The notes: a model not told the origin generated them from the letters alone. Positions 12,642 through 53,837 are shown, counted from the first letter of the stretch. The stretch is DNA of 64,000 nt from Candidatus Moranbacteria bacterium GW2011_GWE2_35_2- (GCA_000990585.1 LBQD01000001.1:62965-126964); one strand, 5' to 3'. Translations and numbers: made by a program.

Positions 12642-14423
12642 ATGGAAATTAGAAATATTGCAATTATTGCTCATGTGGATCATGGAAAAACCACCATTAC
12701 CGATGCGATTTTGCGTCAAACCGGAATGGTGAGTGACGAAGGGATTTCGATGGATAGCAATGCCTTGGAGAAAGAAAGAGGGATTACGATTTATTCAAAA
12801 AATACATCCATTTTTTATAAGGACACAAAAATCAATATTGTGGACACGCCGGGACATGCTGATTTTGGAAGTGAAGTGGAACGTGTTTTACGTTCGATTG
12901 ATAGTGTAATTTTGGTAGTAGACGCGCAGGAAGGACCGATGCCGCAAACGCGTTTTGTACTTAAGAAATCTTTAGAACTAGGACTTAAGCCTATTGTAGT
13001 GCTTAATAAAATAGACAAGCCAGCTGCTCAGCCGGAAATTGCCAAGGAGCAAGTTTTTGAATTGTTTTTAGATTTGGGCGCCAGTGATGAACAATTGGAA
13101 TTTACAACTGTATATGCGATTGGGAGAGAAGGAATTGCCAAAATGAATTTAGATGATGATTCAAAGGATTTGATGCCGCTTTTGGATACAATCTTGAAAG
13201 AAGTGGCGCCTGCAAAATCTGATACAACCGTGCCATTTCGAATGCAACCTTTTTCTTTAGGATATGACAATTTTCTTGGGCGCTTGGCAATTGGAAGGGT
13301 ATATGAAGGAAAAGTGAAAAGCGGAGATGTAATAATCAAAAAACCGAATGGAGAGGTTCGTAAAGGGAAAATTATCAAGATTCAAACTTTCAAAGGATTG
13401 GTAAAAGAGGATGTTTCCGAGGCGATTGCCGGTGATATTGTGATGGTGGCGGGACTTCCGGATATTTTTATCGGAGAGACAATTTGTGAAAACGAAGACC
13501 AGCAACCGCTTCCGGCGATCAAAGTTGATGAGCCGACAATTTCTTTGAATTTTATGGTCAATGATTCGCCGTTTGCCGGACGGGAAGGGAAATTTGTTAC
13601 TAATAAACAAATTCGCGAAAGGTTGGAAAAGGAATTGGAAGTTAATGTGGGCTTGCGGATTGATTTTTCTTCTGATTCATATAAGGTTTATGGACGCGGG
13701 GAATTACATATTGCCGTGTTGCTTGAAAATATGAGAAGAGAGGGTTTTGAAATTCAGGTTTCTCAACCGCAAGTTATTATTAAAGAAGAAGATGGAAAAA
13801 AACTTGAACCATTCGAAGAAGTTACTGCGGATGTTCCCGAAGCATTATCAGGATCAGTGATTGAGAAAATAGGAAAAAGACAGGGGATAATGACTGAAAT
13901 GAAGCAGAAAAATGGACAAACACGTTTGGTTTTTGAAGCACCAACGCGCGGAATTTTGGGATATCGAAGTCAGTTTATTGTTGATACGAAAGGCGAGGGA
14001 ATTTTTTCCAGCCGGTTTTTGGAATTTCGTCCGTATGTTGGAGAAATCAAGAAGCGCAATGTTGGTTCAATGATTTCAATGATTGGCGGAAAAGCATTGG
14101 GATTTTCTTTGGCAAATCTTCAAGAGCGTGGAGTTTTGTATATTGGAGCGGGAACTGAAGTGTATGAAGGGATGGTTATTGGTAATGTTTCCAAGGGGGA
14201 AGATATGTCGGTTAATCCAATCAAGGGAAAACAACTTACGAATATGAGAGCCAGCGGTACGGATGATGCAATCCAGCTTGTTCCTCCGACGAAATTGGAT
14301 ATTGAGAAAGGAATGGAATTGATGGCCGAAGATGAATATTTGGAAGTGACTCCGCAAAGTGTTCGTTTGAGAAAACAGTATTTGACCGAGAATGACAGAA
14401 TAAGAGCGAAGAGGAAAAAATAG
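12642..14423 (+). CDS. typA: Translational GTPase TypA/BipA
   Basis: [14 protein letters not shown]...[14 protein letters not shown]...NKIDKP. 593 aa. EF-G-like domain set without an EF-G domain IV. Confidence 0.88.
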
Positions 14424-17554: not shown

Positions 17555-18094
17555 ATGAAAAATGAAAAATATTACAAAGGATTTACATTGATTGAACTTT
17601 TAATTACTATTGCAATTATCGGTATTTTATCGAGTGTGATTTTGGTAAGTCTGAATAGCGCTAGGGATAAAGCAAAGAGGACAAATGCTATTTCAATGGC
17701 AAGGAATATTCAAGCGGTATTAGAGATGTGTATGATTAATTATGCAGTTGTCGATGATGATGGAGCGGGAAGTTTTATTGCCGGTTGCGATCCTGACAAT
17801 GGAAGAGCTCTTTGTGATTTTAATCGCATATTAAATGATGGCGTTCCTGATGCAGGACTACCTATTTGTGATAATTTGGAGACGCCATGGGTTTGGCCTG
17901 ATTTTTCCTCAACTGGATATGAATATGTCAATTCTGCTTTTGCGCAGACCGATACGCATTTTTTTTATTTTGAAATTCACAAGCCAGGAGAGGAAACTTC
18001 GATTTGTTGTCATCAGAAAGGTTGTAGCGCTTCGAAATATGTTGTAGATGGAAATTCGTGTTTTTCGAAAATTATAATACCTAAGCCTAGCTAG
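17555..18094 (+). CDS. Type IV pilin/pseudopilin (prepilin-type N-terminal cleavage/methylation domain); Cys-rich C-terminal globular domain
   Basis: MKNEKYYKG^FTLIELLITIAIIGIL is a class III signal peptide. Ten Cys in the C-terminal half. Confidence 0.88.
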   Translation: MKNEKYYKGFTLIELLITIAIIGILSSVILVSLNSARDKAKRTNAISMARNIQAVLEMCMINYAVVDDDGAGSFIAGCDPDNGRALCDFNRILNDGVPDAGLPICDNLETPWVWPDFSSTGYEYVNSAFAQTDTHFFYFEIHKPGEETSICCHQKGCSASKYVVDGNSCFSKIIIPKPS

Positions 18095-20792: not shown

Positions 20793-21566
20793 ATGAACAA
20801 GAAGACAATAATAGGGAATATTAAGATGAATCTTATTACTCTTTCGGAAAGAGATAGTTATTTGAAGGCGCTTAAGAGTGATATTAAAAAAGTTAAACTT
20901 GGGGATGATGTGGAAATGGTTTTATGTGTTCCTTTTGTACATTTGGAATTTTTTGCGAAAAATTTAAAAAGAACAAAGATTAAATTGGGTGTGCAGAATA
21001 TTTTCTGGCAAGAAAGGGGGTCGTTTACCGGAGAAATATCTCCTGTAATGGCAAAAGAATACGGAGCTGATTATTCTATTATCGGGCATAGCGAAAGAAG
21101 AGGATATTTTAAGGAAAATAATCAAGAAATAAACTTGAAAATAAAGTCAGCAATCAAGAATGGAATTATCCCTATTTTGTGTATAGGGGAAACTTTACAA
21201 GAAAGACAGAAAGGATTAATCAATGATATTATTTCTCGCCAATTGAATGAAGGATTGGAAGGTATTTCCCGGATGCAAGCGGAAAAAATAATTATTGCTT
21301 ATGAACCGGTTTGGGTAATCGGATCTGATGCGGAGCCTACAAGTGATGAAATAATGGAAGCGAGAATTTTGATTCGCAAAATTTTAACGGGGAAATATGG
21401 ATCCGATACAACTGGAAAAATAAAAGTTTTATATGGCGCAAATGTGAAAGCGAGTTTAATAAAGAAAATGTGCTTGGATCCGCAGATGGATGGAGTGCTC
21501 GTCGGAAGAGAAAGTTTGGTGCCGTTTAATTTAATTGAGATAGTTAAAGGTTTTGAAAAATGTTAA
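20793..21566 (+). CDS. tpiA: Triosephosphate isomerase
   Basis: IIGNIKMN...IIGHSERR...CIGETL...AYEPVWVIGS. Confidence 0.92.
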   Translation: MNKKTIIGNIKMNLITLSERDSYLKALKSDIKKVKLGDDVEMVLCVPFVHLEFFAKNLKRTKIKLGVQNIFWQERGSFTGEISPVMAKEYGADYSIIGHSERRGYFKENNQEINLKIKSAIKNGIIPILCIGETLQERQKGLINDIISRQLNEGLEGISRMQAEKIIIAYEPVWVIGSDAEPTSDEIMEARILIRKILTGKYGSDTTGKIKVLYGANVKASLIKKMCLDPQMDGVLVGRESLVPFNLIEIVKGFEKC

Positions 21567-21581
21567 ATAAAAAATAAAAAT

Positions 21582-22454
21582 ATGATTGTTGGAGTAGGTG
21601 AAATCTTGAAAAAAGCGAAAGATGGCGGGTATGCCGTTGGAGCTTTTAATGTTGTTAATATGGAAACCGTTCAGGCAATTTTGCAGGCTGCATCGGAAGT
21701 TCGCTCTCCGGTAATACTTCAAGTAACGGAAAAAACGATGGATTATTCCGGAGGAAGAAATATTTTTCATATCATCAAAAATACGGCCGAATTTTATTAT
21801 CCTGAAGTTCCGGTGGGAATTCACTTGGATCACGGAAAAAGTTTTGAAGTTGTTCAACGAGCAGTGGAAATCGGTTTTGATTCAGTAATGTATGACGGTT
21901 CCAGAAGAGAATATGAAGACAATTTGGCGATGACAAAAAAAGTGGTTGAATTTTGTCAAGAAAATTTTGCCGGAAAAGTTAGTGTGCAAGCTGAATTAGG
22001 AAGCGTTCCTTATCTCGGAGAAGTTAATATGAATGATAATGAATGGGAGAAATATATGACGGATCCGGGGCAAGCGGAAGAGTTCGTAAAAGAAACCGGA
22101 ATTTCTGCCTTAGCAGTAGCAATTGGGAACGCACATGGATTTGCCAAGGAGCGCAAGGAGCCGGATTATGCTCGGTTAGAAATGATTAATAAATTAGTAG
22201 ATATTCCTTTGATTTTGCACGGAGCGTCGGATTGGGAAAACGGAAGAGTAAAGGAAGTGATTAAGAGAGGAATTTGTTGTTTCAATGTGGATACTGCTAC
22301 TAGAATGGCTTTTATTAACAATATTATGGTGGCGCTCAAAGATGAGGGTGGCGGTTCGTTTGATATGCGCCGACTTTTGGGCAATGCACGTGAAGCAATT
22401 AAGGAAGTAGTAAAAACCAAGATGAAATATTTTGGAAGTGATGGAAAGATATAA
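21582..22454 (+). CDS. fba: Fructose-bisphosphate aldolase class II
   Basis: YAVGAFNV.NME..QAIL.AA.E..SPVILQ...HLDHG.... Confidence 0.9.
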   Translation: MIVGVGEILKKAKDGGYAVGAFNVVNMETVQAILQAASEVRSPVILQVTEKTMDYSGGRNIFHIIKNTAEFYYPEVPVGIHLDHGKSFEVVQRAVEIGFDSVMYDGSRREYEDNLAMTKKVVEFCQENFAGKVSVQAELGSVPYLGEVNMNDNEWEKYMTDPGQAEEFVKETGISALAVAIGNAHGFAKERKEPDYARLEMINKLVDIPLILHGASDWENGRVKEVIKRGICCFNVDTATRMAFINNIMVALKDEGGGSFDMRRLLGNAREAIKEVVKTKMKYFGSDGKI

Positions 22455-22561
22455 TTTAAAAATAAAAATGACAATTAAAAACTTTAAATTATAATAAGTT
22501 TTTTAATATTGTATAATTTTTTTAAATTTGATATTTGCATTTTGAATTTAGCGAATTGATT

Positions 22562-22759
22562 ATGTGTCTTGCTTATCCCGGAAAAATTAAATCAATAAAA
22601 AACGGTTTGGCAACCGTTGATTTTGATGGTATTGAAAAAGAAGTGAATGTTTCTTTGGTGGATGCTAAAAAAGGAGACTATGTAATTGTCCATGCCGGAT
22701 TTGCGATTGAAGTTATGGATAAAAAAACAGGAGAAGATAGTCAGGAAATATTTAAATAA
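22562..22759 (+). CDS. hypC: [NiFe]-hydrogenase maturation chaperone HypC/HupF
   Basis: Begins MCLAYPGKI (conserved N-terminal Cys2). The tracked ORF starts 27 nt upstream, but HypC requires Met-Cys. Confidence 0.8.
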   Translation: MCLAYPGKIKSIKNGLATVDFDGIEKEVNVSLVDAKKGDYVIVHAGFAIEVMDKKTGEDSQEIFK

Positions 22760-23797
22760 ATGAGAATGCAACAAAAATTAATCAGTGAAATTAATAAACT
22801 GGCCAGGGAGATTGGGCGAGGGGTGAACTTAATGGAAGTTTGCGGGACGCATACGCAAGCAATCAGTCGAAACGGAATTCGTCAAATTTTGCCCGAAAAT
22901 ATCAATTTGATTACCGGACCGGGATGTCCGGTTTGTGTTAGTTCGCAAAAAGACATTGATGCAATTGTAAGTTTGGCACTGGCGGGAATTCCGGTGGCGA
23001 CATATGGCGATGTCCTTCGCGTTGCGGGAAGATTTGGCAGTTTGGATGATGCGCGCGAAAAAGGTGCGCGAGTTTTCGGCGTGTATGATGTTGTCGAGGC
23101 ACTGGCTTTGCAAAAAAAATATCCAAACTTGGTTTTTTTCGGATTGGGATTCGATACGACAACGCCAATGACTGCTTGGGCAATTAAGAAAGGTTTAATG
23201 GTTTATTCTTCTCATAAAATTTTTATTCCGGCGATGCAAGCACTTTTGGATTTAGGCGAAGTGAATATTGATGGATTTATTGATCCGGGACATGTTAGCG
23301 CTATAATCGGCAGTAAACCGTATGAAATTCTTGGAGTTGCGCAAGTAATAACCGGATTTGAAGCGCAGGATATTTTGGAAGGAATTTTAATGTTACTCGC
23401 GCAAATAAAAGATGGACGAAAGGAAGTAGAAAATCAATATCAAAGAGTGGTGAAAAAAGAAGGAAATAGGAAGGCGCGAAATTTGATTTTTGAAGTTTTT
23501 GAAATTAGTGATGGTAATTGGCGAGGTTTTGGAAAAATTCCTGGTTCCGGATTGGAAATAAAAAAAGAATTTTCGCATTTTGACGCGAAAGTGAAATATA
23601 AAAATATTTTAGACAAAGTTGATTTTTCACTTTCCAAAGAGCCATTGGGATGCCGGTGTGGCGAGGTGGTGAGAGGTTTGATTTTACCAAAAAAATGTCC
23701 AATGTTCGGGAAAAAATGCACACCAGAAAATCCTATTGGACCGTGCATGGTTTCATTGGAGGGTGCATGTCATAATTTTTTTTCATCGAAAAATTAG
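22760..23797 (+). CDS. hypD: [NiFe]-hydrogenase maturation protein HypD
   Basis: MEVCGTHT, GPGCPVCV, and a C-terminal Cys cluster CRCGE...CPMFG..C. Confidence 0.88.
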   Translation: MRMQQKLISEINKLAREIGRGVNLMEVCGTHTQAISRNGIRQILPENINLITGPGCPVCVSSQKDIDAIVSLALAGIPVATYGDVLRVAGRFGSLDDAREKGARVFGVYDVVEALALQKKYPNLVFFGLGFDTTTPMTAWAIKKGLMVYSSHKIFIPAMQALLDLGEVNIDGFIDPGHVSAIIGSKPYEILGVAQVITGFEAQDILEGILMLLAQIKDGRKEVENQYQRVVKKEGNRKARNLIFEVFEISDGNWRGFGKIPGSGLEIKKEFSHFDAKVKYKNILDKVDFSLSKEPLGCRCGEVVRGLILPKKCPMFGKKCTPENPIGPCMVSLEGACHNFFSSKN

Positions 23798-23816
23798 ATA
23801 GGTATTTTTTTATTTG

Positions 23817-24878
23817 TTATTGTTGCATTTTTAATTTGATATCTTCTTCCATTAGCGCATCAATAATTTTTTCTATTTCTCCATCTAAAATTGACGGTAA
23901 ATTGCTCCAATTTTGTTTGATGCGATGGTCGGTGACGCGGTCTTGCGGGAAATTGTAGGTTCTTATTTTTTCACTGCGGTCGCCAGTTCCAATTTGGCTT
24001 TTTCTGGCATCTCCCAATTCTTTAGCTCTTTTATCCTGCTCAATTTGAACCAAGCGAGACCGCAGAACTTTCATTGCTTTATCTTTATTTTTATGCTGTG
24101 ATTTTTCATCTTGACAAGAAACAATCAGTCCGGTAGGAAGGTGAGTGATGCGAATGGCGGATTTGGTTGTGTTGACCGATTGACCTCCCGGTCCAGATGA
24201 GCAGAAGGTATCGATGCGCAAATCTTTTTCATCGATTTTGAATTCTACTTCTTCGATTTGAGGAAGTACGGCAACAGTGGCAGTAGAAGTATGAATTCTC
24301 CCCATTTTTTCTGTTTCTGGGGTTCTCTGAACGCGGTGTACTCCGGATTCATATTTCATTTTTCCAAAAACGTTTGTTCCGATTATTTCAAAAATAACTT
24401 CCTTAAAACCGCCAATTCCAGTTTGATTGGAACTCATAAGAGAAATTTTCCATCCCTGATTTTCCGCAAATCGAGAGTACATACGAAATAGATCTCCGGC
24501 AAAAAGCGCAGATTCATCTCCGCCGGCGCCGGCGCGAATTTCTACGATAACGTCTTTGTTGTCGTTAGGATCTTTGGGAAGTAGCATTTGCTCCAATTTT
24601 TTATCCAGTTCATCTTTTTTTGGAGAAAGTTTGATATTTTCGTCCATCGCCATTTGTTTCATTTCTGGGTCAGTTTCTGTGTTTACGATTTGGGCATTTT
24701 CCCGCATTTCCTTCTTGATTTTTTCCAATTCGAAAATTACACCGATTATTTCGGTCATTTCCGCTTGTCTTTTACCTAGCTCGGCCATTTTTTTCATATC
24801 GGAAACTATTTCAGGAGAATTGAGTTTTTCTTGGATTTCAGCATATTCGTTTTTAATAACTTGTATTTTATGTTGCAT
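23817..24878 (-). CDS. prfA: Peptide chain release factor 1
   Basis: GGQ motif (SGPGGQSVN) and a PxT-type tripeptide (RTPET), not SPF. Confidence 0.88.
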
Positions 24879-25003: not shown

Positions 25004-28000
25004 TTAGGAATTTTTTCTTTCGAAAAGATAATAGAGAATAGGGAAGACTAATAGAGTGAGAAGTGTTGAAGCGGTGAGACCAAAGACGATCGCCCAAGCT
25101 AAACCTTCCCAAACCGGGTCGGCGACGATTGTGAGTGAACCGAGGATGGCGGTGAGTGAAGTGAGAATGATCGGCAAAAGGCGGATGCGTCCAGTTTCAA
25201 CTAAGGCATCTTTGAGCGGCAAACCTTTCTTTCGGAGCGGTTCCAAATACTCCAAATAGATAATGGCGTTTTTAACCGCTAAGCCGGACAGAGCAATGAC
25301 GCCGATCATTGAAGTTGCATTGAAATAGGTACCTTTTATAATTCCTAGAAAGGCAAACCCTGGTAAAACTCCGATGAGCGAAAGTGGGATACTACCCATA
25401 ATAAGAAGCGGGATGATTAATGATTCGGTTTGGGCGGCAACAACGAAATAAATGAGGAATATAACAAGAGCCATCACAATGCCGAGATCGCGAAAAACTT
25501 CCAATGTAAGTTTCCATTCCCCGTCGATCATAACAGAATATTGCTCTCCTGTTTCCGTATCGGTATATGTTACTCCGAATGGAGTCCATGTAGTTTTTGT
25601 TTCTTGGGCGTTCGGTAATTTGTAGGCTAGCAATTTTGGGAAAATATCTAATACGGCATAAACTACGCTTCGGTCTTCCATTTCCGCCGAAATGGAAGCG
25701 GTTTTTTGGCGTTCGTCGGTGTAAATTATACTGTCTTTTTCTGCTTCGGTTTTAAGAAGAAGTTCGGGTAGAGGAATCGGTGTTCCGTCGGCGCTTAGGA
25801 TGGTTAGACGATTGAAATTTTCCGCGAATTCACGGTCTTTCTTGTCTAAACGGACAATGATTTGCTCTTGATCATTTGTTTGGCCAAGATTGTCGTCACG
25901 GCGGTGATAAACGCCTATTGGTAAGCCGTGCAATTCGAGAAAAAGCATTTGATTGATAGCGCTTGGTGCGATGCCTAATTGTTGAGATTTCTCAATATTT
26001 ACTCGGTAAGATTGGTCATAATTTTGTTCCAAAATGGATGTGTCTAAATCAACGACACCGTCGATTTCGGAAACAGTTTTCTTGATGTCTCGAGCGATAG
26101 CAGTTATTTTTTTAGTATCTTCTCCTTGTACTTTGAGAAAAAGCGTCGCTAAGACCGGTGGTCCTGGTGGATCCTCGATGATTTTAATATTGGCGTCTGG
26201 ATGCTCTTCGGAAAATTTCAAGGAAATATCCCTGATGTCAGAGGCGATATCTTCACTGGTTGTGTCCCTTTCTTCTGGATGGGTTAGATTTATTTTTAAT
26301 GTTGCTTGATTTTGCTGGACGCGGAACGAACTGCCTTTGAAGAGTCCGTTAAAATCGACGATTTGCGATTGTCCGACAAAACTTTCCACACTTTTGATAT
26401 TTTCTTGAGTAAGGATATTTTTTTCCAATTTAGTAGAAAGCAGTGCAGTTTTTTCAATATTAGTTCCGTCCGGTAGATCTAAATATAGATAAAATTGTTC
26501 TTTGTCGGCTTTGGGAAGCATTCTAAATTTTACTATTTTGACAAGCGGCAGGGAAAGTGAAAAAATAATGGCGAAAGCGGTGCTGGCGATAAATATATTC
26601 CGAGCTTTTGATTGGTCAAGTAATATTCTAATGGTTTTAGCATAGGACGTTTCAATTTTTTTGATTACGCGGTCGATGAAATTGGTTTTTTTTTCATGAA
26701 TACTTTCTTTATGTAATAGGTGGGCGAAAAACGGATTAAGGGTGACGGCGAAAAGTAAAGAAGCTGCTAGTGCTACTGGTACGAAAAAGGGAATTGGTCC
26801 AATGTAAGGTCCCATCATTCCAGTTACAAACGCCATTGGAACAAAAGCCAAAATCATCGTGAGAGTGGACATAAAAAGTGCTGAACCAACTTCGTCTACG
26901 GCGAGAACTACGGTTTCTGTTTTATTTAATCCTAATTTCATCCGGAAATAGCGGTTGATATTTTCTACGACCACAATCGCGTCATCTACTAAAAGTCCGA
27001 GAGAGAGGATGAGCGCGAAAAGTGTGATGCGGTTAATTGTTTCGCCAAAAACATTTCCGATGGCGAAAACGGCGAAAAGGATTAATGGGATGACTAAGGA
27101 AATAATAAGCGCACTTCGAAATCCCAATATTAGAAGAATGACCGCACCGACGATAGCGATTGATTTAGCAAGTTCGATTGATAATTTGGTGATTTCTTCG
27201 CTGGCAGTTGCGCCTTCGTTGCGAAGGATTTTGGTTTTTATTTCTTTTGGAAGGGAAGAATTTTTAATTTCATCCAGCTTGGTAATAACATTTTCTGCGA
27301 TCGTGGTGGCGTTAGTGCCTTTTAATTTGGAAATGGCGATATAAACTACCGGTTGGGCGGAGCCGTTATCTTCTTTTTCTCGCAAGCGGACGTAGTTAGT
27401 GATTTCTCCCGGTCCGTAATCGACAGTAGCGACATCGGATATGCGAATAATGGAAGAGTTTTGTGAACGAATGATGATGTTTTCCAATTCTGTTGCGTCG
27501 CGAATATTTCCGTCAACGGTCAAAATGGAATTATAATTGTCGTTTTTGAAAGTATGTACGCCGTAATTTCCGTTGGCTGATTGAATGGCTTGGACGATTT
27601 CAAAAGGGGAAATTTCAAGAGCGGTAAGTTTTCCGACATCCAAAGATACATTGAGGTTGTTGATACGACCGCCTTTGATTTCGATTTTGGAAGTTCCTGA
27701 AACTTGTTTGAGATTGTCGGATATTTCAATTGCTGCTTTGCGTAAAGCCTGCTCGGAAAATTCATCTGAAAAAAGACCGATGGAGATAATTGGCACGTCC
27801 TCAGAATCCATTGTTTGGACGATTGGTTCGGAAGCTCCGGAAGGTTTCAATTGAATATTATCTCGTAGTTTTTGATTAAGGGTGGTTTTGGCTTTTTCTA
27901 AATCGGCGCCGACATAAAATTTGACAACTACGACGCTTTTCCCGCCGGAAAATGATTGGGAGGATATTTCATCCACTTCCGGGATTTCCTTGAGGACGTC

Positions 28001-28240
28001 TTCCATTTTGCGAGTGATTAATTCGAAAACTTCTTGACTGGTGGCATTGGGAAAATCAGTTGAGATAATGAAGGCCGGTGCAACGATTTCCGGATTGTAT
28101 TGTTTAGGCATTAGGATAAAACTCACGATACCCCACGCGGCAATGATGAGTATAGAAAGGATGCTCAATTCTCGATTATTGAGAAAAAGGCGTGTGATTT
28201 TGCCTGAGATGCCCAAGGTGTTTTTTTTATTATTATTCAT
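25004..28240 (-). CDS. RND superfamily efflux permease (AcrB/CusA-like, 12 TM plus two large periplasmic loops)
   Basis: 1078 aa. Architecture and conserved TM4/TM10 regions match RND pumps. Confidence 0.88.
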   Translation of the reverse strand: MNNNKKNTLGISGKITRLFLNNRELSILSILIIAAWGIVSFILMPKQYNPEIVAPAFIISTDFPNATSQEVFELITRKMEDVLKEIPEVDEISSQSFSGGKSVVVVKFYVGADLEKAKTTLNQKLRDNIQLKPSGASEPIVQTMDSEDVPIISIGLFSDEFSEQALRKAAIEISDNLKQVSGTSKIEIKGGRINNLNVSLDVGKLTALEISPFEIVQAIQSANGNYGVHTFKNDNYNSILTVDGNIRDATELENIIIRSQNSSIIRISDVATVDYGPGEITNYVRLREKEDNGSAQPVVYIAISKLKGTNATTIAENVITKLDEIKNSSLPKEIKTKILRNEGATASEEITKLSIELAKSIAIVGAVILLILGFRSALIISLVIPLILFAVFAIGNVFGETINRITLFALILSLGLLVDDAIVVVENINRYFRMKLGLNKTETVVLAVDEVGSALFMSTLTMILAFVPMAFVTGMMGPYIGPIPFFVPVALAASLLFAVTLNPFFAHLLHKESIHEKKTNFIDRVIKKIETSYAKTIRILLDQSKARNIFIASTAFAIIFSLSLPLVKIVKFRMLPKADKEQFYLYLDLPDGTNIEKTALLSTKLEKNILTQENIKSVESFVGQSQIVDFNGLFKGSSFRVQQNQATLKINLTHPEERDTTSEDIASDIRDISLKFSEEHPDANIKIIEDPPGPPVLATLFLKVQGEDTKKITAIARDIKKTVSEIDGVVDLDTSILEQNYDQSYRVNIEKSQQLGIAPSAINQMLFLELHGLPIGVYHRRDDNLGQTNDQEQIIVRLDKKDREFAENFNRLTILSADGTPIPLPELLLKTEAEKDSIIYTDERQKTASISAEMEDRSVVYAVLDIFPKLLAYKLPNAQETKTTWTPFGVTYTDTETGEQYSVMIDGEWKLTLEVFRDLGIVMALVIFLIYFVVAAQTESLIIPLLIMGSIPLSLIGVLPGFAFLGIIKGTYFNATSMIGVIALSGLAVKNAIIYLEYLEPLRKKGLPLKDALVETGRIRLLPIILTSLTAILGSLTIVADPVWEGLAWAIVFGLTASTLLTLLVFPILYYLFERKNS

Positions 28241-28252
28241 ATACTGGAAAAA

Positions 28253-29398
28253 TTAATAAATTACTGTATCGCCAGCGTGGATTTCATGAATTCCTTCTGT
28301 GATGACGATGTTTCCCGGTTCTAATCCGGAAACAATTTCTATTTGTCCAGCGTTGGTTTTTCCGACTGTGACTTTTTTCTTGTGAACAATTTTATCTTGA
28401 ATGATAAAAATAAAAGAATCTCCGAATTCATATAAAAGGGCATTTTCCGGAACAATAAGCGCCTTTTTGGAATTTTCCAGTGGAAGTTGCGCGCAGATGT
28501 AGTCTCCAATTGAAATAGAATGTGATGTGTTTTCTTTGGTACGCAAGCGAATGATTCCATTTTGATTTGCAAAATTAGTGAAAGCACTTTTAGCATATAT
28601 AAGACCAATTGTGGAGATGGAATTTTCTTTAGTAAGAAATATTTCTTGATTGATTGATAATTTTTCGATGATATTTTTTGGTGCGGAAATTTCGATCTCA
28701 GCTGTGTCGAGAGCGGATAGGGAATAGAGCGGGGTTCCGGCGATGACGAAAGTTCCAATTGTTATGTGGCGGCGAGTGATCGTTCCGGAGAAAGGTGCGC
28801 GGATAGTTTGTTTTTGTGCATAGTTGTCGGCAATCGATTGTTGATTTTCGATTTCAGAAACTTGGATGCGAGTGGAGGAAATTTGCAGATCGCGGGTGCG
28901 TCTGGCACTTTTAACCGATTCTTCGGCTAAAAACACATCCTTTTTAGTGGCGTTGCCATTATCAAAATCTTTTTCGATTTTTTTAAGTGCAGCTTTGGCT
29001 TCGTCGACTTTCTGATCATATAGTTTTTCGGTGTCGACAGCGGACTTTTTTGCGTTGTTTGAAACTTGCGCCAAACCGCGTGCGTTTGCGCTGATTGTTG
29101 AGTCGTCGATGATAGCTAGTATTTCGCCGGCACGGACTAAGTCGCCTTCATTTTTGAAAAGTTGCCGGACCATGCCGTTTATTTCCGGGGTTATTTCTGT
29201 ACGGTTTTTGCCGACTGCGAAAGCACAGTACGAGTTTTCGGGCAAAAATTCAGAAAGCGCGATAGGGGTCGCAATCACTTTTTTAGCAGGATTGCTATTC
29301 GCTACTACGGTTTTGGGTGAGGTATTGTGAAAGAATAAAAAAGTGCCACTTATACCGGCGATTGCGACAAACATAAAGAGAGACTTATTTTTAAGCAT
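28253..29398 (-). CDS. RND efflux membrane-fusion (periplasmic adaptor) protein
   Basis: N-terminal TM, lipoyl/beta-barrel MFP pattern (...NGMVRQLFKNEGDLVRAGEILAIIDD...). Immediately upstream of the pump. Confidence 0.8.
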   Translation of the reverse strand: MLKNKSLFMFVAIAGISGTFLFFHNTSPKTVVANSNPAKKVIATPIALSEFLPENSYCAFAVGKNRTEITPEINGMVRQLFKNEGDLVRAGEILAIIDDSTISANARGLAQVSNNAKKSAVDTEKLYDQKVDEAKAALKKIEKDFDNGNATKKDVFLAEESVKSARRTRDLQISSTRIQVSEIENQQSIADNYAQKQTIRAPFSGTITRRHITIGTFVIAGTPLYSLSALDTAEIEISAPKNIIEKLSINQEIFLTKENSISTIGLIYAKSAFTNFANQNGIIRLRTKENTSHSISIGDYICAQLPLENSKKALIVPENALLYEFGDSFIFIIQDKIVHKKKVTVGKTNAGQIEIVSGLEPGNIVITEGIHEIHAGDTVIY

Positions 29399-29422
29399 AT
29401 TTTTTTAAAATATAAAATTAGA

Positions 29423-29710
29423 TTATTTGTTTTGTGCAGTACGGATTATTTTCAGGATTTCTGTTTGCATTGTTTCAAAGTTGCGTCGCGACAGTTTATT
29501 TTTATTGGCGCTGTCAAGATGCTGTTGCATATAACTTTCCAGCATCAAGAGATTAGTGTTTTTTAGCAGACCGATAATCGCCAAATTTTGTTGAATAATA
29601 GAAAAGCAATTTTTTTCTTGCTCGACCATCGGGATTATTTTTTCCAGTGAAGTCCGAGCTTTTTTGAGAGCAATAAGGATTCTCTCTTTATTTGCGGTTG
29701 ATTTTTTCAT
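29423..29710 (-). CDS. CsoR/RcnR/FrmR-family metal-sensing transcriptional repressor (DUF156)
   Basis: 95 aa; all-helical ...EQEKNCFSIIQQNLAIIGLL...LESYMQQHLD pattern with conserved Cys/His positions. Confidence 0.65.
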   Translation of the reverse strand: MKKSTANKERILIALKKARTSLEKIIPMVEQEKNCFSIIQQNLAIIGLLKNTNLLMLESYMQQHLDSANKNKLSRRNFETMQTEILKIIRTAQNK

Positions 29711-29741
29711 AGTGATATTATTTTGTTTAATGAATTAAACT

Positions 29742-29760
29742 CCTATACCTAGGGTATAGG
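29742..29760. promoter_or_regulatory. Perfect 8-3-8 palindrome CCTATACC-tag-GGTATAGG immediately upstream of the CsoR-like gene (candidate operator)
   Basis: Read directly; resembles CsoR-type TACC-N-GGTA operators; TATAAT follows at 29761. Confidence 0.55.
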
Positions 29761-29947
29761 TATAATAAAGCAGATATTTTTATTTGTCAAATTTTAAGAA
29801 AAAAACAATATATTCCTAATTAAGGAACGTTTTTATATTATGATGGAAGATAATAATATCAATTATTTTAAAAAATAATTGAACTTCTATGCGATAGTGT
29901 AAAAGTTTAATGGAGTTTTTTTTGTTTAAATGCGTGAGTTGTTGAAT

Positions 29948-29982
29948 TAAAAAACGCTTCGAAATATTTTGTGAGCGTTTTT
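29948..29982. terminator. Bidirectional rho-independent terminator (A-run, AACGCT stem/AGCGTT, T-run)
   Basis: aaaaaacgct...agcgtttttt; lies downstream of the minus-strand gene ending at 30049. Confidence 0.55.
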
Positions 29983-30048
29983 TAAATCAGACTAATTTTT
30001 TTGGTGCGTAGTTTCCCTTAAGAGCTGTTTGGCGGTTTGATTTTAATT

Positions 30049-30873
30049 TTATTCGGAAGGGTTTGTTTTTTCTTCCGTTGTTTTATTTGAAACAAATTCT
30101 TTCCATACATCAAATCCTCCGTCAAGTGTTTTTGCTGTGAGTATTCCTAGATCAAAAAGTTTTGATCCAGCTTGAAAACTTTCAATCGCATCTTGCCCAT
30201 AGACGATAATTTCTTTAAATTTTGGTATTTCTTCTTCGCGTGCTTCCAATTCGGAAAGCGGAATATTTATAGAATTATGAATGCTTTCAGTGTTAAAAAG
30301 TGATGAATCGCGAACATCTAAAATAAAAAGCGGGGCATTATTGTTTAATGCGACTTGAAATTCTGTCGGAGATATGTAGATAACTTTCGATTGGTCGGAG
30401 ATAGAGCTTGGATCTCCTGTGGAAATTGTAGAGAAAAGGTTTTCCGTCCATCCCTCAATTCCATTATACAAAACTGAAATATTTGAAAACCCGTTTCTTT
30501 CAAGCAGTTTCACTGAATCAGAAATATTTTTTTTACTTTCAGGGTAGGCAATTATGATTATTTCCTTTTTTGAGTCTAAAATATCGCCTTTTTTTTGAAG
30601 ATCATCATTGGGAATGTTTATTGAATTTGCAATGTGTTCTATTTCAAAATCTGCATTACTGCGTAAATCAAGAATTTGAATGTTTTCTTTTTGTTTGATT
30701 TTTTCGCTCAATTCTTTGGGATAGATAATTGAGTAATCAGTGGGAGTTTCCGTCGGAGAATTGATTATGTTTTTTTCTTTTTTTCCCGGGCGGATAAATG
30801 TAATAAGAAAAACTATTCCAATTAGAATAATTCCAATGAGAACAATATAATTTTCTTTGTTGTTTTTTTGCAT
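30049..30873 (-). CDS. Membrane-anchored tandem rhodanese-like domain protein, apparently lacking catalytic Cys
   Basis: N-terminal TM. Two rhodanese-fold segments, with no Cys at either active-site loop position. Confidence 0.6.
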   Translation of the reverse strand: MQKNNKENYIVLIGIILIGIVFLITFIRPGKKEKNIINSPTETPTDYSIIYPKELSEKIKQKENIQILDLRSNADFEIEHIANSINIPNDDLQKKGDILDSKKEIIIIAYPESKKNISDSVKLLERNGFSNISVLYNGIEGWTENLFSTISTGDPSSISDQSKVIYISPTEFQVALNNNAPLFILDVRDSSLFNTESIHNSINIPLSELEAREEEIPKFKEIIVYGQDAIESFQAGSKLFDLGILTAKTLDGGFDVWKEFVSNKTTEEKTNPSE

Positions 30874-39014: not shown

Positions 39015-39719
39015 ATGTACGAAAAATCTTATCTTGAAAAAGCTCCGGTAAAGTCCGAAGAAAAAAAAGAGCGGATGAGTGATTCATGTTTAGAAGGACT
39101 TATTAAGCATATTAGGGAATATGAAGGTTTTTATGATAGTAAGTTTGTGCGGGAGTCCAGTAATAATGAATTTGGATTTTCAGAAGATGAGGGGCGGGAA
39201 ATGGAAATGATCATCAGAAAATTGAAGGATAAAATATTAGATTTGTATGAAAATAATCACGACTTCTTTATTGAAGGAGAGGGGCAAGCAAAGCATATAT
39301 TTGGAAATTCAATATTGGTTAATGCGGGTGCTTTTGCTCGAAGATATTCCGAAGGAAAGAAGGTTCGGGACGATGTTAGAAAAATAATACGTTATGAAAT
39401 GAGTCTATTAAATGAATATACGAAGGGTTTACTGGAAGATGATGATTTTTTGCGAGATGAAATAACATTCGAAAAAGGTTATTTAAATGGATTCAAGAAG
39501 TTTTTTAAGGATAAAAAAGAGATAAGTCCTAAATCGCCAAATAGAATCGCGTTGGCTAATTTTTTTCATGATCTTAGTAGGGGTGGAATAAAGAAAAGTG
39601 ATTTTGAAAGAAGATTGGAAGATGTTCAGGAAAGTCAAAATATTTTGAATGAAGATGAATTGCAAAAACATTTGTTTGCGGTTGACAATAAAGGCGAGGA
39701 ATATTATAAATTGGTTTAA
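39015..39719 (+). CDS. Hypothetical protein (234 aa, acidic, helical)
   Basis: As above. Confidence 0.5.
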   Translation: MYEKSYLEKAPVKSEEKKERMSDSCLEGLIKHIREYEGFYDSKFVRESSNNEFGFSEDEGREMEMIIRKLKDKILDLYENNHDFFIEGEGQAKHIFGNSILVNAGAFARRYSEGKKVRDDVRKIIRYEMSLLNEYTKGLLEDDDFLRDEITFEKGYLNGFKKFFKDKKEISPKSPNRIALANFFHDLSRGGIKKSDFERRLEDVQESQNILNEDELQKHLFAVDNKGEEYYKLV

Positions 39720-41491
39720 TGGGCGTTGGACAAAAAGAAGAACATACTATGACAGCACAAGAACTTAGGCAAAAATATTTGGAATTTTTCAAGTCGAAGG
39801 GACACACAATCATCCCTTCGGCTTCTTTGGTGCCGGAAAATGATCCGACAACGCTTTTTACAACTGCCGGAATGCACCCTTTGGTGCCATATATTATGGG
39901 AGAAAAGCATCCAGGGGGAAAGAGGGTGGCAAATGTTCAAAAGTGCGTGAGAACAACAGACATTGATGAAGTAGGGGACGCGACACATCACACTTTTTTT
40001 GAAATGTTGGGAAATTGGAGTTTCGGTGATTATTTCAAGAAAGATTCAATCGAAATGAGCTTCGAGTTTTTAACTTCTTCCGAATGGATGGGATTAGACA
40101 AAAATCGGCTGGCAGTTTCAGTTTTTGAAGGAGATGAAAACGTTTCTTTCGATGACGAGTCTTTTGAGAAGTGGAAAGCGCTTGGAATTTCAGAAAATAA
40201 AATTGCGAAGCTTCCCAAGAAAAATAATTGGTGGGGTCCAGCTGGAGAGACAGGACCATGTGGACCGGACACAGAGATTTTTTATTGGGTTGGCGAACTG
40301 GACAAAATCCCGGAAAGTTTTGCTGATGATAATGATCAATGGGTGGAAATTTGGAATAATGTTTTTATGCAGTTTGAAAAAAATAAAGAAGGAAAATTTG
40401 TTCCATTGGCAAAAAAGAATGTCGATACGGGAATGGGAATGGAAAGAATACTTTCGGCATTGAATGGATTTGATGACAATTACAAAACAGAATTATTTTG
40501 GCCGATTATTGAGAAAATTGAAGAACTTTCCGGAAAAAAATATGAAGATTTCAAAAAAGAATTTCGTATTATTTCCGATCATATCAAAGCGGCAACATTT
40601 GTGATTTCCGAAGGAATCACTCCGTCAAATACCGATCAAGGATATGTGGTGCGTCGGCTCATTCGCCGGGCAATTCGCTATGGAAAAATGATTGGAATTG
40701 AGAATAATTTTACCAAAGAAATTGCAAAAGTCGTTTTTGAAATTTATGGAGAAGTTTATCCGGAAATTATTAGTGTGAAAGAAATTGTCTTTATTGAATT
40801 GGAAAAAGAGGAAAATAAATTCAGACAGACTTTGGAAAAAGGCTTGAAAGAATTTAATAAACTGACTTTGATTACAGGAAAAGATGCTTTTAATTTATAT
40901 CAATCATACGGATTTCCGTTGGAGATGACAGAAGAGTTAGCCAAGGAAAAGAATTTTGCGGTTAATAAAAAAGATTTTGAAGATGAATTTAAAAAACACC
41001 AAGAACTTTCTCGAACTGCTTCGGCGGGGAAATTCAAGGGTGGGTTGGCTGATTCCGGTGAAGAAACAGTGAAATTGCATACTGTGGCGCATCTTCTTTT
41101 GGCGGCGCTTCGTGAAGTGTTGGGAGAGGAAATTTATCAAAAAGGATCGAATATTACTGCCGAAAGATTGCGCTTTGATTTCAATTATCCGGAAAAATTG
41201 ACCGCAGAACAATTGAAACAAGTTGAGGATTTGGTAAACCGGAAAATTGAAGAGAAAATTGAAGTCGAGATGGTTGAAATGCCGAAAAATAAAGCTTTGG
41301 AAAAAGTGAAGGTTTCTTTTGATTCATCCAAATATGGCGACGTTGTGAAAGTATATTCAATCGGAGATTTTAGTGCTGAACTTTGCGGAGGACCGCACGC
41401 GGGAAATACCGGCGAGCTTGGACATTTCAAAATTAAAAAAGAAGAGTCCTCCAGCGCCGGAGTTCGCCGAATTAAAGCAGTTTTGGAATAG
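39719..41491 (+). CDS. alaS: Alanyl-tRNA synthetase, compact form (catalytic + editing domains, no C-Ala domain). An alternative start lies at 39749
   Basis: AlaRS class II core (...FTTAGMHPL..., GNWSFGDYFK) and editing motifs HTVAHLL...CGGPH. Confidence 0.85.
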   Translation: MGVGQKEEHTMTAQELRQKYLEFFKSKGHTIIPSASLVPENDPTTLFTTAGMHPLVPYIMGEKHPGGKRVANVQKCVRTTDIDEVGDATHHTFFEMLGNWSFGDYFKKDSIEMSFEFLTSSEWMGLDKNRLAVSVFEGDENVSFDDESFEKWKALGISENKIAKLPKKNNWWGPAGETGPCGPDTEIFYWVGELDKIPESFADDNDQWVEIWNNVFMQFEKNKEGKFVPLAKKNVDTGMGMERILSALNGFDDNYKTELFWPIIEKIEELSGKKYEDFKKEFRIISDHIKAATFVISEGITPSNTDQGYVVRRLIRRAIRYGKMIGIENNFTKEIAKVVFEIYGEVYPEIISVKEIVFIELEKEENKFRQTLEKGLKEFNKLTLITGKDAFNLYQSYGFPLEMTEELAKEKNFAVNKKDFEDEFKKHQELSRTASAGKFKGGLADSGEETVKLHTVAHLLLAALREVLGEEIYQKGSNITAERLRFDFNYPEKLTAEQLKQVEDLVNRKIEEKIEVEMVEMPKNKALEKVKVSFDSSKYGDVVKVYSIGDFSAELCGGPHAGNTGELGHFKIKKEESSSAGVRRIKAVLE

Positions 41492-49084: not shown

Positions 49085-49891
49085 ATGAATATTGATATTG
49101 AAAAAATAAAAGAAATCGCCAAAAAATCCGGGGAAAAAGTTTTGGAATATTATTACAAAGATTATAATATTTCATACAAAGATAGTGGTGGCAAAAAATC
49201 ACCTTTGACTGAGGCGGATTTAGCGTCGAATAAAATAATCATGGAAGAACTTGAAAAATATAATTTTCCGATTTTGAGTGAAGAAACGGAAGATGATTTA
49301 TCAAGGCTTCAAAGTGAATATGTTTGGATTGTTGATCCGTTGGATGGTACGAGTGATTTTATGGAAAAGACCGGTGAATTTTCGATTCTTATCGGGTTAG
49401 TAAAAAATGGTGAGCCGGTTTTGGGTGTGGTTTTCGAGCCGGCAAAAAATACTTTTTATTGGGCAGAAAAAGGGAAAGGCGCTTTTATGGAAAAAAATGG
49501 AAAAATCAAAAAAATAAATGTTTCCAATGAGGATAATTTTCAAGATATGACTATTTTGCTCTCGCGAAATCATCTTTTGGAAAGCGATAAAAAACTTTGT
49601 GAAAATTTGAAAATAGGAAAACAAACAAAAAGAGGGTCGACTTCCAAGATGTGCGTGATTGCGCGTGGAGATGCGGAAATCTATGTAAATACCAGTGATA
49701 AAACGGGGGAGTGGGATACTTGCGCGCCACAAGTAGTCTTGACGGAAGCGGGAGGTAAAATCGTGGATATGCGGGGAAAAGAACTAATGTATAACAAAAA
49801 AAACCCGAAGAATCTTAATGGATTTGTGGTGTCAAATGGTGAAAATTATGCTAGAATAGTTGAGGAATTGAAAAGGGTAATAAAAAGTTAA
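49085..49891 (+). CDS. cysQ: 3'(2'),5'-bisphosphate nucleotidase CysQ (inositol monophosphatase family)
   Basis: WIVDPLDGT. The context with cysC and sat supports a PAP phosphatase. Confidence 0.75.
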   Translation: MNIDIEKIKEIAKKSGEKVLEYYYKDYNISYKDSGGKKSPLTEADLASNKIIMEELEKYNFPILSEETEDDLSRLQSEYVWIVDPLDGTSDFMEKTGEFSILIGLVKNGEPVLGVVFEPAKNTFYWAEKGKGAFMEKNGKIKKINVSNEDNFQDMTILLSRNHLLESDKKLCENLKIGKQTKRGSTSKMCVIARGDAEIYVNTSDKTGEWDTCAPQVVLTEAGGKIVDMRGKELMYNKKNPKNLNGFVVSNGENYARIVEELKRVIKS

Positions 49892-49905
49892 ATTCAATAA
49901 GAATA

Positions 49906-50427
49906 ATGAAAAAAGGAATAGTGATTTGGCTTACGGGCTTGCCGTGCAGTGGGAAAACAACATTATCCAAGGAAATCGAAAAATATTTTCAGCAAAAGAA
50001 TTTGCCTATTCAGAGATTGGATGGCGATGTGGTGCGTGAAACCATCAGCAAGGATTTGGGATTTTCAAAAAAAGATCGCGACATTAACATAGAACGCCTT
50101 TCATATGTGGCGCAGATGCTTTCGGATAATGGAGTGAATGTGGTGTCTGCTTTTGTTTCTCCATATCAAAAAATGCGTGATTTTACCAGAAGTCTTTGTG
50201 AAAATTTCGTAGAAGTTTATGTTAAATGCGATATTGAAGAATGCAAGAAAAGAGATGTAAAAGGAATGTATGCCAAAGCCGCCAAGGGACAAATAAAAGA
50301 TTTCACAGGAGTTGATGACCCTTACGAAAACCCAAAGAATCCGGAAATTGTCGTGAGTACGGAAAAAGAAAATATAAAAGAAAGTGTCGAGAAAATCATC
50401 AACTATCTTGAAAAAAATAACGGATGA
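49906..50427 (+). CDS. cysC: Adenylylsulfate (APS) kinase
   Basis: IWLTGLPCSGKTTL...LDGD..R. Confidence 0.9.
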   Translation: MKKGIVIWLTGLPCSGKTTLSKEIEKYFQQKNLPIQRLDGDVVRETISKDLGFSKKDRDINIERLSYVAQMLSDNGVNVVSAFVSPYQKMRDFTRSLCENFVEVYVKCDIEECKKRDVKGMYAKAAKGQIKDFTGVDDPYENPKNPEIVVSTEKENIKESVEKIINYLEKNNG

Positions 50428-51485: not shown

Positions 51486-51665
51486 TAAAGTGGGTTGTAC
51501 GTAATTTAGGTTCTATCATAAGTAAGATATGATGCAAGTAGTTAATTTTAACGATTTACATGATAAGGTGTTAAGAGATATCAAAAACAAATGAATTTTT
51601 ATATAAAAAATAATTCAAAAAGAGTAGTTATTGAAAAAATTCACATCTTATTTTTTGGACATAAA

Positions 51666-53833: not shown

Positions 53834-53837
53834 AAAA

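What the first reader, a model, noticed from the sequence alone, without database searches (positions are those of the whole stretch)
22562..23797. Orphan hypC-hypD pair with its own extended -10 promoter, no hydrogenase or hypEF in view
HypC and HypD form the Fe(CN)2CO-assembly scaffold for [NiFe] hydrogenases. Here they sit between fba and prfA without hypA, hypB, hypE, hypF or structural hydrogenase genes nearby. Either the remaining genes are elsewhere (some CPR carry group 3b/4 hydrogenases) or the pair has been retained for another function.
Basis: partly seen in the sequence, partly recalled or inferred. Interest (0 to 1): 0.5.

Follow-up and report, generated by a model that had tools for sequence, protein, structure and literature searches.

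The report
hypCD split from its hydrogenase genes
The hypC-hypD pair is real and intact, but it is not an orphan: the same chromosome carries hypE, hypF, a hypA-like gene and a [NiFe] hydrogenase about 140-157 kb away, apparently separated by one large inversion, so the finding is ordinary.

Summary
hypC (22562-22759) and hypD (22760-23797) are bona fide, with all catalytic motifs intact. No other hyp or hydrogenase gene lies anywhere in the 64-kb window.

The window is 100 % identical to part of a 421-kb Rifle groundwater scaffold of a Candidatus Moranbacteria bacterium (Patescibacteria/CPR). That same scaffold carries hypF, a group-3b-like [NiFe] hydrogenase small and large subunit and a hypA-like gene about 141-146 kb from hypD. 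hypE sits about 157 kb away. NCBI protein accession numbers from three further assemblies place these genes 136-150 genes from hypCD.

Close relatives with the same upstream synteny (…tpiA-fba-hypC-hypD) continue directly into hypE-hypF-hydSL-hypA. More distant relatives have prfA-prmC-x218-DUF192-mraY-like.

In this genome the junctions are hypD|prfA(-) and prmC(-)|hypE(+). That is what one ~157-kb inversion with breakpoints hypD|hypE and prfA|prmC would produce. The inverted segment spans a GC-skew switch, probably the replication terminus.

The "own extended -10 promoter" is neither statistically nor comparatively supported. Verdict: a normal maturation gene pair in a split hyp cluster, of low interest.

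The parts
22562..22759 (+). hypC. [NiFe]-hydrogenase maturation chaperone, 65 aa, with the N-terminal Met-Cys2 and the conserved VHxGFAI histidine.
   Evidence: PF01455 E 2.7e-24 and TIGR00074 66.9 bits against cutoff 48. Aligns from residue 1 to T. kodakarensis HypC 2Z1C, E 8e-15. The upstream TTG at 22535 (74-aa call in some assemblies) would bury the essential N-terminal Cys.
22760..23797 (+). hypD. Fe-S scaffold protein for Fe(CN)2CO assembly, 345 aa (343 aa if started at 22766, as in public gene calls).
   Evidence: PF01924 E 4.8e-124 and TIGR00075 387 bits against cutoff 193. Matches 2Z1D HypD at E 1e-81 over residues 4-341. Motifs CGTHTQ (28-33), GPGCPVC (53-59), GFDTT (130-134), PGHVSAIIG (176-184) and CX14CX6CX16C (298-337) are all present.
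22455..22561 (+). fba-hypC spacer, 107 bp and AT-rich.
   Evidence: 11/12 match, but the site density is not above shuffles; the spacer is not conserved in L007 or L002 and is only 15 bp in L003. Read-through from tpiA-fba is therefore at least as likely as an autonomous promoter.
23798..23816 (.). Inferred inversion breakpoint: the 19-bp gap between the hypD stop and the stop of the convergent prfA.
   Evidence: Relatives L002, L003 and L001 continue from hypD into hypE. Here, and in L007, prfA(-) follows. The reciprocal junction prmC(-)|hypE(+) is in L008 and L020.
23817..24878 (-). prfA (peptide chain release factor 1). It is the first gene of the inverted segment and is detached from its usual partner prmC.
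   Evidence: PF03462 and PF00472. In 15 related genomes prfA is followed by prmC. In this genome prmC lies next to hypE.
20793..22454 (+). tpiA-fba, the conserved upstream neighbours of hypCD in this Moranbacteria subclade.
   Evidence: Pfam hits. The same order is seen in L002, L003 and L007.

Best explanation
These are the normal hypC and hypD of a Candidatus Moranbacteria bacterium (Patescibacteria/CPR, Rifle aquifer) that has a [NiFe] hydrogenase. HypC and HypD form the scaffold on which the Fe(CN)2CO unit is built. HypE and a short HypF supply the cyanide, and the unit is then delivered to the large subunit of a group-3b-like hydrogenase. All of those partner genes exist on the same chromosome. 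They sit 141-157 kb from hypCD because a chromosomal inversion of about 157 kb, with breakpoints between hypD|hypE and between prfA|prmC, split an ancestrally contiguous cluster (fba-hypC-hypD-hypE-hypF-...-hydS-hydL-hypA). Shown here: gene identities, intact motifs, the location of every partner gene on the same scaffold, both novel junctions, and both ancestral junctions in relatives. Inferred: that a single inversion produced the split, that the pivot is the replication terminus, and that the proteins function as in model organisms.
For: (1) Identity and integrity of HypC and HypD. (2) The window is 100 % identical over 20,873 bp to L005, which is ENA ERZ28564383 ANAN16-1_SAMN03203000 scaffold_2, 421,435 bp. 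hypD lies at scaffold positions 334,913-335,944. (3) The same scaffold at 182,684-203,946 (L016) carries hypF (414 aa), hydS (250 aa), hydL (420 aa) and a hypA-like gene of 91 aa. HydL has both NiFe-binding motifs, RICGICPVVH and DPCISCAVH. Its best solved match, over the full length, is P. furiosus sulfhydrogenase I alpha, E 1e-60. (4) hypE matches TIGR02124 at 337 bits against a cutoff of 252 and ends in PRIC. It lies in L008, L009 and L020, which overlap L016 over 5,820 bp (100 % identity for L008 and L009, 99.8 % for L020). (5) Accession arithmetic in three independent assemblies. HypC/HypD = KKP71277/71278, HydL = KKP71414, HypE = KKP71426 (locus tag UR69_C0001G0250). HypD/HypC = HBO16935/16936, HydL = HBO16797, HypE = HBO16785. 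HypD/HypC = KKQ22900/22901, HydL = KKQ22764, HypE = KKQ22752. The longest contig for these proteins is 788,208 bp. (6) Ancestral state of the first junction: L002 (HypD 87 % identical) and L003 (79 %) share secY...tpiA-fba-hypC-hypD with the window, and then continue into hypE-hypF(-)-RNaseT-pilins-hydS-hydL-hypA. L001 has the same hyp order in a different context. (7) Ancestral state of the second junction: prfA-prmC in 15 related loci. In L025-L028 the full run prfA-prmC-x218-DUF192(-)-mraY-like(-)-GT2 is present, and L030 and L033 show parts of it. That block is the one that abuts hypE in this genome. (8) Orientation: on the scaffold's forward strand the order is prmC(-)|hypE(+) ... prfA(+)|hypD(-). 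Flipping the interval restores both prfA->prmC and hypC->hypD->hypE. (9) The hypD|prfA junction is seen in all 24 contigs read (36 index blocks), from several samples and assemblers, and in a second species, L007, whose HypD is 89 % identical. It is therefore not a mis-assembly. (10) The replicative GC-skew component has opposite sign at the two ends of the segment and no discontinuity at either junction, as expected for an inversion that spans ori or ter. (11) Literature: Moranbacteria from this same Rifle dataset were already classified as carrying group 3b (and 1a) [NiFe] hydrogenases (PMC5037454), and 3b enzymes are described in Moranbacteria (PMC10811913).
Against: No hypB and no maturation endopeptidase was seen in any stretch I could read. 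That is the window plus about 37 kb of the remote locus; roughly 300 kb of the scaffold is unread. The 'full hyp set' is therefore not literally shown. The HypF is only the Kae1-like C-terminal half and the HypA-like protein has no cysteine, so the maturation pathway may deviate from the E. coli model. In L003's genome, where hypD-hypE is intact, prfA (L022) is also not followed by prmC. The prfA|prmC junction is thus unstable in this subclade, and the history may have involved more than one event. hypE and hypF are 9.7 kb apart here but adjacent in relatives, which needs at least one further insertion or rearrangement. hypE's coordinates on scaffold_2 are inferred from overlapping contigs of other assemblies, not read directly from that scaffold.
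Confidence: 0.88

Rival explanations
1. The pair is split from its partners, but not by one inversion. Several events (translocation, insertion of foreign DNA, or successive inversions) moved hypE...hypA away from hypCD.
For: L022 shows prfA without prmC in a genome that keeps hypD-hypE. L024 joins the fba block to prmC-prfA at different breakpoints and lacks hypCD. Six housekeeping genes (amidohydrolase, murD, trxB, GT4, DUF4012, murJ) lie between hypE and hypF here but not in relatives. Defence-like inserts occupy the hypD|hypE gap in L002 and L003.
Against: Both novel junctions combine exactly one side of each ancestral junction, in the orientation a single inversion predicts. The GC skew is continuous across both junctions. 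Extra events are needed only for the hypE-hypF spacing.
Confidence: 0.1
2. True orphan or moonlighting pair: hypCD is kept for a job other than hydrogenase maturation.
For: hypCD is consistently tied to tpiA-fba rather than to the hydrogenase in this subclade. The split arrangement has persisted across two species.
Against: Intact hypE, hypF, a hypA-like gene and hydSL sit on the same scaffold. Every HypD and HypC residue needed for the canonical role is kept. HypD is 65-89 % identical to homologues that sit inside complete hyp-hydrogenase clusters.
Confidence: 0.02
3. Assembly artefact: a chimeric join after hypD in a metagenome scaffold.
For: The source is a metagenome-assembled sequence, and the junction is a 19-bp gap between convergent genes.
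Against: The same junction appears in all 24 contigs read, from ENA, NCBI and JGI assemblies of different samples, and in a different species at about 83 % DNA identity.
Confidence: 0.01

Closest known systems
HypC-HypD scaffold complex of [NiFe]-hydrogenase maturation (Thermococcus kodakarensis HypC/HypD, PDB 2Z1C, 2Z1D, 3VYR; E. coli HypC/HypD)
   Same: Full-length homology: HypD E 1e-81 to 2Z1D and HypC E 8e-15 to 2Z1C. HypC has the N-terminal Cys2. HypD has CGxH, GPGCPVC, PxHVSxxxG and the CX14CX6CX16C [4Fe-4S] motif.
   Different: The GFETT motif reads GFDTT here, as it does in 28 of the 120 closest homologues. The genes are not next to hypE/hypF.
Contiguous hyp-hydrogenase cluster of related Moranbacteria (loci L001, L002, L003: hypC-hypD-hypE-hypF-hydS-hydL-hypA)
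   Same: The same genes are present. HypD is 69-87 % identical and HydL 72-88 %. L002 and L003 share the upstream synteny secY...tpiA-fba.
   Different: In this genome, and in L007, the cluster is cut after hypD. The rest lies 141-157 kb away in inverted orientation.
Group 3b [NiFe] hydrogenase (sulfhydrogenase) of Pyrococcus furiosus, and the 3b enzymes reported in CPR bacteria (PMC5037454, PMC10811913)
   Same: The remote HydL and HydS match sulfhydrogenase alpha and delta best. The literature already assigns 3b enzymes to Moranbacteria from the same aquifer.
   Different: Scores are far below the NCBIfam equivalog cutoffs (241 against 880 bits). Only the alpha and delta genes are adjacent, and no beta or gamma (diaphorase) genes were seen in the 21-kb locus.
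Organisms with dispersed hyp genes, such as Synechocystis sp. PCC 6803 (own knowledge, not tested here)
   Same: hyp genes scattered around the chromosome still serve a single hydrogenase.
   Different: Here the dispersal is recent enough for its cause, an inversion, to be reconstructed from relatives.

Membership tests
HypC/HupF/HybG chaperone family | Profile match above the curated cutoff (PF01455, TIGR00074) | tested here: met
   85.5 bits against 28.5, and 66.9 bits against 48
HypC/HupF/HybG chaperone family | N-terminal Met-Cys (Cys2, the Fe ligand) and the conserved His in the VHxGFAI motif | tested here: met
   The sequence starts MCLAYPGK and contains VIVHAGFAIE. It aligns from residue 1 with 2Z1C.
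HypD | Equivalog-level profile match (TIGR00075, PF01924) | tested here: met
   387.4 bits against 192.8, and 414 bits against 25
HypD | Conserved motifs CGxHxx, GPGCPVC, GFETT and PxHVSxxxG, plus the C-terminal CX14CX6CX16C [4Fe-4S] ligands | tested here: met
   All are found. GFETT is GFDTT, a variant shared with 28 of the 120 closest homologues.
HypD | Works with HypE, HypF and a [NiFe] large subunit encoded in the same genome | tested here: met
   hypF, hydS, hydL and a hypA-like gene are on the same scaffold. hypE is on overlapping contigs, 100 % identical for L008 and L009. Accession series from three assemblies agree.
HypD | Actual Fe(CN)2CO assembly activity and HypC-HypD complex formation | not testable with these tools
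   Needs biochemistry.
Complete canonical hyp set (hypABCDEF) | All six genes present and full length | tested here: inconclusive
   hypC, hypD and hypE are full length. hypF is only the Kae1-like half (TIGR00143 positions 383-739; 233 bits against a cutoff of 466). The hypA-like gene is 91 aa, has no Cys and scores below cutoff. hypB was not found in about 101 kb read, and the rest of the genome is unread.
   They lie on the same scaffold, 141-157 kb away.

The most novel reading that the evidence does not exclude
Two readings remain open. First, this Moranbacteria lineage may run a stripped-down [NiFe] maturation pathway: HypC, HypD, HypE, a HypF reduced to its Kae1-like half, a cysteine-free HypA-like protein, no HypB, and no C-terminal processing of the large subunit. 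That pathway would serve a two-gene 3b-like hydrogenase. Second, hypCD may be transcriptionally tied to tpiA-fba, coupling cofactor assembly to glycolytic or fermentative flux. The inversion would then have left hypCD under glycolytic control while the rest of the system is regulated separately.
Probability: 0.2. Interest if true: 0.35.

Novelty: already known. Interest (0 to 1): 0.1.

Why it matters
It matters little beyond annotation. It shows that a hyp pair with no partners in a 64-kb view should not be called orphan without checking the rest of the replicon. It also documents a clean example of an inversion that splits a functional gene cluster, and the prfA-prmC pair, in a small CPR genome. 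The reduced HypF and HypA and the missing HypB in this clade could interest people who study minimal hydrogenase maturation. That is a side observation and not the finding itself.

Tried and rejected
(1) An exact look-up of the 345-aa HypD found nothing. The cause was the start codon: public gene calls use the ATG at 22766, and the 343-aa form is on record.

(2) I first suspected that the minus-strand block at 56-64 kb (ORFs of 435, 374, 259, 311, 345 and 115 aa) was a 3b hydrogenase with hypE and hypA, because the sizes fit. Pfam shows glycosyltransferases, GDP-mannose dehydratase, an epimerase and DUF2304.

(3) I looked for pseudogene remnants of hypE, hypF, hydSL and hypA in the window by tblastn at E up to 10 and found none. 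Simple deletion with decay in place is therefore rejected.

(4) I tried to recognise the organism's large subunit from the 'longest contig' column of the homologue table. That column describes only the cluster representative, so it was uninformative. Cluster membership solved the problem.

(5) The genome-contig scan with PrfA did not return the window's own genome. It still gave the outgroup arrangement.

(6) I compared the two junction sequences by eye and saw no shared or inverted repeat that could have mediated the inversion. This was not a systematic test.

(7) Rfam and tRNA scans of the window found nothing.

Full report
**Observation**

The ORF list and profile searches confirm the two genes at the stated coordinates. 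hypC is 22562-22759 (65 aa, starting MCL). It matches PF01455 at E 2.7e-24 and TIGR00074 above its cutoff. hypD is 22760-23797 (345 aa). It matches PF01924 at E 4.8e-124 and TIGR00075 at 387 bits against a cutoff of 193.

Both align end to end with the solved Thermococcus kodakarensis proteins. HypD carries these motifs:
- CGTHTQ
- GPGCPVC
- GFDTT, a variant of GFETT shared with 28 of the 120 closest homologues
- PGHVSAIIG
- the CX14CX6CX16C iron-sulfur ligands

The neighbours are tpiA and fba upstream and a convergent prfA 19 bp downstream.

I scanned about 60 of the window's ORFs of 110 aa or more with Pfam. They comprise:
- fusA-tuf, the S10/spc ribosomal operon, bipA, secY, map and ruvX
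- a pilin, GT2, galT-like, dedA, tpiA, fba, hypCD and prfA
- an RND pump with its membrane-fusion protein, rhodanese, fmt and def
- glycosyltransferases, mnmA, alaS, phoH, mreBC and PBP2
- PAPS synthesis genes, a sulfotransferase and further sugar genes

None is a hyp or hydrogenase gene. tblastn with relatives' HypE, HypF, HydS, HydL, HypA and RNase T found no remnant. The local observation is therefore correct.

**The promoter claim**

The fba-hypC spacer is 107 bp and AT-rich. The scan's best site is ATGACA-16-TATAAT at 22468-22495. Promoter-like sites are no more frequent in the region than in shuffled sequence: 12 found against 14.1 +/- 4.1 expected.

The spacer is not conserved in the closest relatives, and in L003 hypC starts 15 bp after fba. 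An autonomous promoter is possible but unsupported. Read-through from tpiA-fba is at least as likely.

**Whose genome this is**

The window's Fba is on record. The locus fetched around it, L005, is 100 % identical to window 11582-32454. L005 comes from ENA assembly ERZ28564383, ANAN16-1_SAMN03203000 scaffold_2, 421,435 bp, from Rifle aquifer groundwater.

The 343-aa HypD call carries NCBI accessions KKP71278.1, KKQ22900.1, KKQ06423.1 and HBO16935.1. The source name is Candidatus Moranbacteria bacterium GW2011_GWE2_35_2-, and the longest contig is 788,208 bp. HypD maps to scaffold_2 positions 334,913-335,944 on the minus strand.

**What relatives look like**

HypD has thousands of homologues in Patescibacteria at 65-89 % identity. 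Two close relatives share the window's upstream synteny from bipA-secY to tpiA-fba-hypC-hypD. They are L002 (HypD 87 % identical) and L003/L004 (79 %). After a defence-like insert, both continue into hypE, hypF (minus strand) and an RNase T-like exonuclease. L003 goes on through pilins, hydS, hydL and hypA; L002 ends at a pilin gene.

A more distant relative, L001, has the same hyp-hydrogenase order in a different context. The contiguous cluster is therefore the common state.

Only the window's species and L007 have prfA(-) directly after hypD. L007 is a different species, with HypD 89 % identical and DNA about 83 % identical.

**Where the partners are**

- *hypE.* Searching with L002's HypE returned a cluster whose members carry accessions from the same assemblies as the window's HypCD: KKP71426.1 (locus tag UR69_C0001G0250), KKQ22752.1 and HBO16785.1.
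- *Large subunit.* Searching with L003's large subunit returned a cluster containing KKP71414.1, KKQ22764.1 and HBO16797.1.
- *Spacing.* In three assemblies, HypD, HydL and HypE are therefore 136-138 and 148-150 protein accessions apart.
- *Direct location.* The exact large-subunit protein lies on the window's own scaffold_2 at 192,684-193,946 (L016).
- *Gene order in L016.* The order is GT4, DUF4012, murJ, hypF(-), RNase T-like, a PEP-CTERM-like protein, a pilin, hydS, hydL, hypA-like, gap, lepA.
- *Linking hypE to the scaffold.* The hypE loci L008 and L009 overlap the first 5,820 bp of L016 at 100 % identity, and L020 at 99.8 %. This puts hypE at about 177.4-178.5 kb of the scaffold.

The partner proteins look functional:
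- HypE passes TIGR02124 (337 bits against 252) and ends in PRIC.
- HydL has RICGICPVVH and ends in DPCISCAVH.
- HydL and HydS match sulfhydrogenase (group 3b) alpha and delta best.

The literature already lists group 3b (and 1a) [NiFe] hydrogenases in Moranbacteria from this same dataset (PMC5037454). It also describes 3b enzymes in Moranbacteria more generally (PMC10811913).

The caveat is hypB, which I did not see in the roughly 101 kb I could read.

**How the split arose**

On the scaffold's forward strand the order is prmC(-) | hypE(+) ... hypF, hydS, hydL, hypA ... acrB(+), prfA(+) | hypD(-), hypC(-), fba(-). Inverting the interval between the two bars (about 177.4-334.9 kb, roughly 157 kb) restores two arrangements at once:
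- hypC-hypD-hypE, as in L002, L003 and L001
- the canonical prfA-prmC pair

I tested the second ancestral junction with a genome scan using PrfA. In 15 related Patescibacteria loci, prfA is followed by prmC. In L025-L028 the full run prfA-prmC-x218-DUF192(-)-mraY-like(-)-GT2 is present, and L030 and L033 show parts of it. In the window's genome that block abuts hypE instead.

The replicative component of GC skew is +0.16 on the forward strand at L016 and L020, and +0.16 on the window's top strand. The window's top strand is the scaffold's reverse strand. There is no jump at either junction. A skew switch, most simply the terminus, therefore lies inside the inverted segment, and the inversion kept genes on their leading or lagging strands. 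This is the usual pattern for inversions that pivot on ori or ter.

The junction is present in all 24 contigs read, from several samples and assemblers, and in a second species. Mis-assembly is excluded.

**Complications**

- In L003's genome prfA (L022) is also not followed by prmC.
- L024 joins the fba block to prmC-prfA at different breakpoints, with no hypCD.
- hypE and hypF are 9.7 kb apart here but adjacent in relatives.
- These two neighbourhoods have been rearranged more than once in this clade. I therefore hold the 'single inversion' step at roughly 0.75, and the 'not orphan, partners on the same replicon' conclusion at about 0.9 or higher.

**Comparison and verdict**

HypC and HypD pass every sequence-level membership test for their families. 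The category 'orphan hypCD' fails its defining test. Dispersed hyp genes serving one hydrogenase are known elsewhere, for example in Synechocystis (own knowledge, not tested here).

Nothing about the pair itself is new. The finding is ordinary, and I score its interest at about 0.1.

The most novel reading not excluded concerns the system as a whole. HypF is reduced to its Kae1-like half (TIGR00143 positions 383-739). The HypA-like protein has no cysteine. No hypB was seen. The large subunit ends at the motif histidine, so no endopeptidase step would be needed. Only the alpha and delta hydrogenase genes are adjacent. This may be a minimal maturation route worth a specialist's look, but it lies outside the finding I was given and needs the full genome to evaluate.

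Noticed in passing
window 49085-55934: A 25 % GC island at about 51.6-55.9 kb, against about 36 % elsewhere. It holds a flippase-like gene, a sulfotransferase and a 698-aa protein with no Pfam match. Directly upstream are a CysQ-like phosphatase, APS kinase and ATP sulfurylase. This looks like a PAPS-supply plus sulfotransferase module for a sulfated surface glycan in a CPR bacterium.
   Followed up: partly
L016:5513-6757 (-), same scaffold as the window: HypF is only 414 aa. It covers positions 383-739 of the 741-position TIGR00143 model (the Kae1-like domain) and has no acylphosphatase, Zn-finger or YrdC-like domains. Relatives have 390-454 aa versions.
   Followed up: partly
L016:11330-11605 (+): The HypA-like protein is 91 aa and starts MHD. 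It contains no cysteine, so the usual CxxC...CxxC zinc site is absent, and it matches only the N-terminal 70 positions of the HypA models. No hypB was seen nearby.
   Followed up: partly
L016:9194-11263 (+): The hydrogenase locus has only small (delta-like) and large (alpha-like) subunit genes, with no adjacent beta or gamma diaphorase genes. The large subunit ends exactly at the DPCISCAVH histidine. The locus is flanked by an RNase T/ExoX-like exonuclease, a PEP-CTERM-like 178-aa protein and a pilin, and this flank is conserved in L003.
   Followed up: partly
L002:11206-17419 and L003:11160-13567: In relatives that keep the contiguous cluster, the hypD|hypE gap is filled with defence-like cargo. 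L002 has an N6_N4 methyltransferase plus ResIII/RE_endonuc. L003 has SLFN_AlbA_2/HATPase_c_4. The site where this genome is broken is thus a variable hotspot.
   Followed up: no
L024:8001-16208: Another lineage (QKEW01000011.1) has prfA-prmC immediately followed by fba(-)-tpiA(-)-galT(-)-GT2(-)-ruvX(-), with no hypCD. The same two neighbourhoods are joined at different breakpoints, which suggests recurrent inversion between them.
   Followed up: partly
window 17555-18094: A type IV pilin-like gene (N_methyl motif) sits between ruvX and GT2 only in the window's species. It is absent at this position in L002, L003 and L007.
   Followed up: no
window 12642-14423: bipA/typA and a small ORF lie between rplO and secY inside the ribosomal protein operon. 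The arrangement is conserved in L002, L003 and L007.
   Followed up: no
window 25004-30873 (-): An RND pump (AcrB family, 1078 aa), a membrane-fusion protein, a CsoR-like metal repressor (called in L005) and a double-rhodanese protein sit upstream of prfA. This may be a metal or sulfur stress module.
   Followed up: no
window 39719-41491: The alanyl-tRNA synthetase is only 590 aa and ends at the second additional domain. It is preceded and followed by ORFs with no Pfam match.
   Followed up: no
L022:4799-7876 (-): In L003's genome a 1025-aa subtilase-like secreted protein is inserted between acrB and prfA. prfA is followed there by unrelated minus-strand genes rather than prmC.
   Followed up: no
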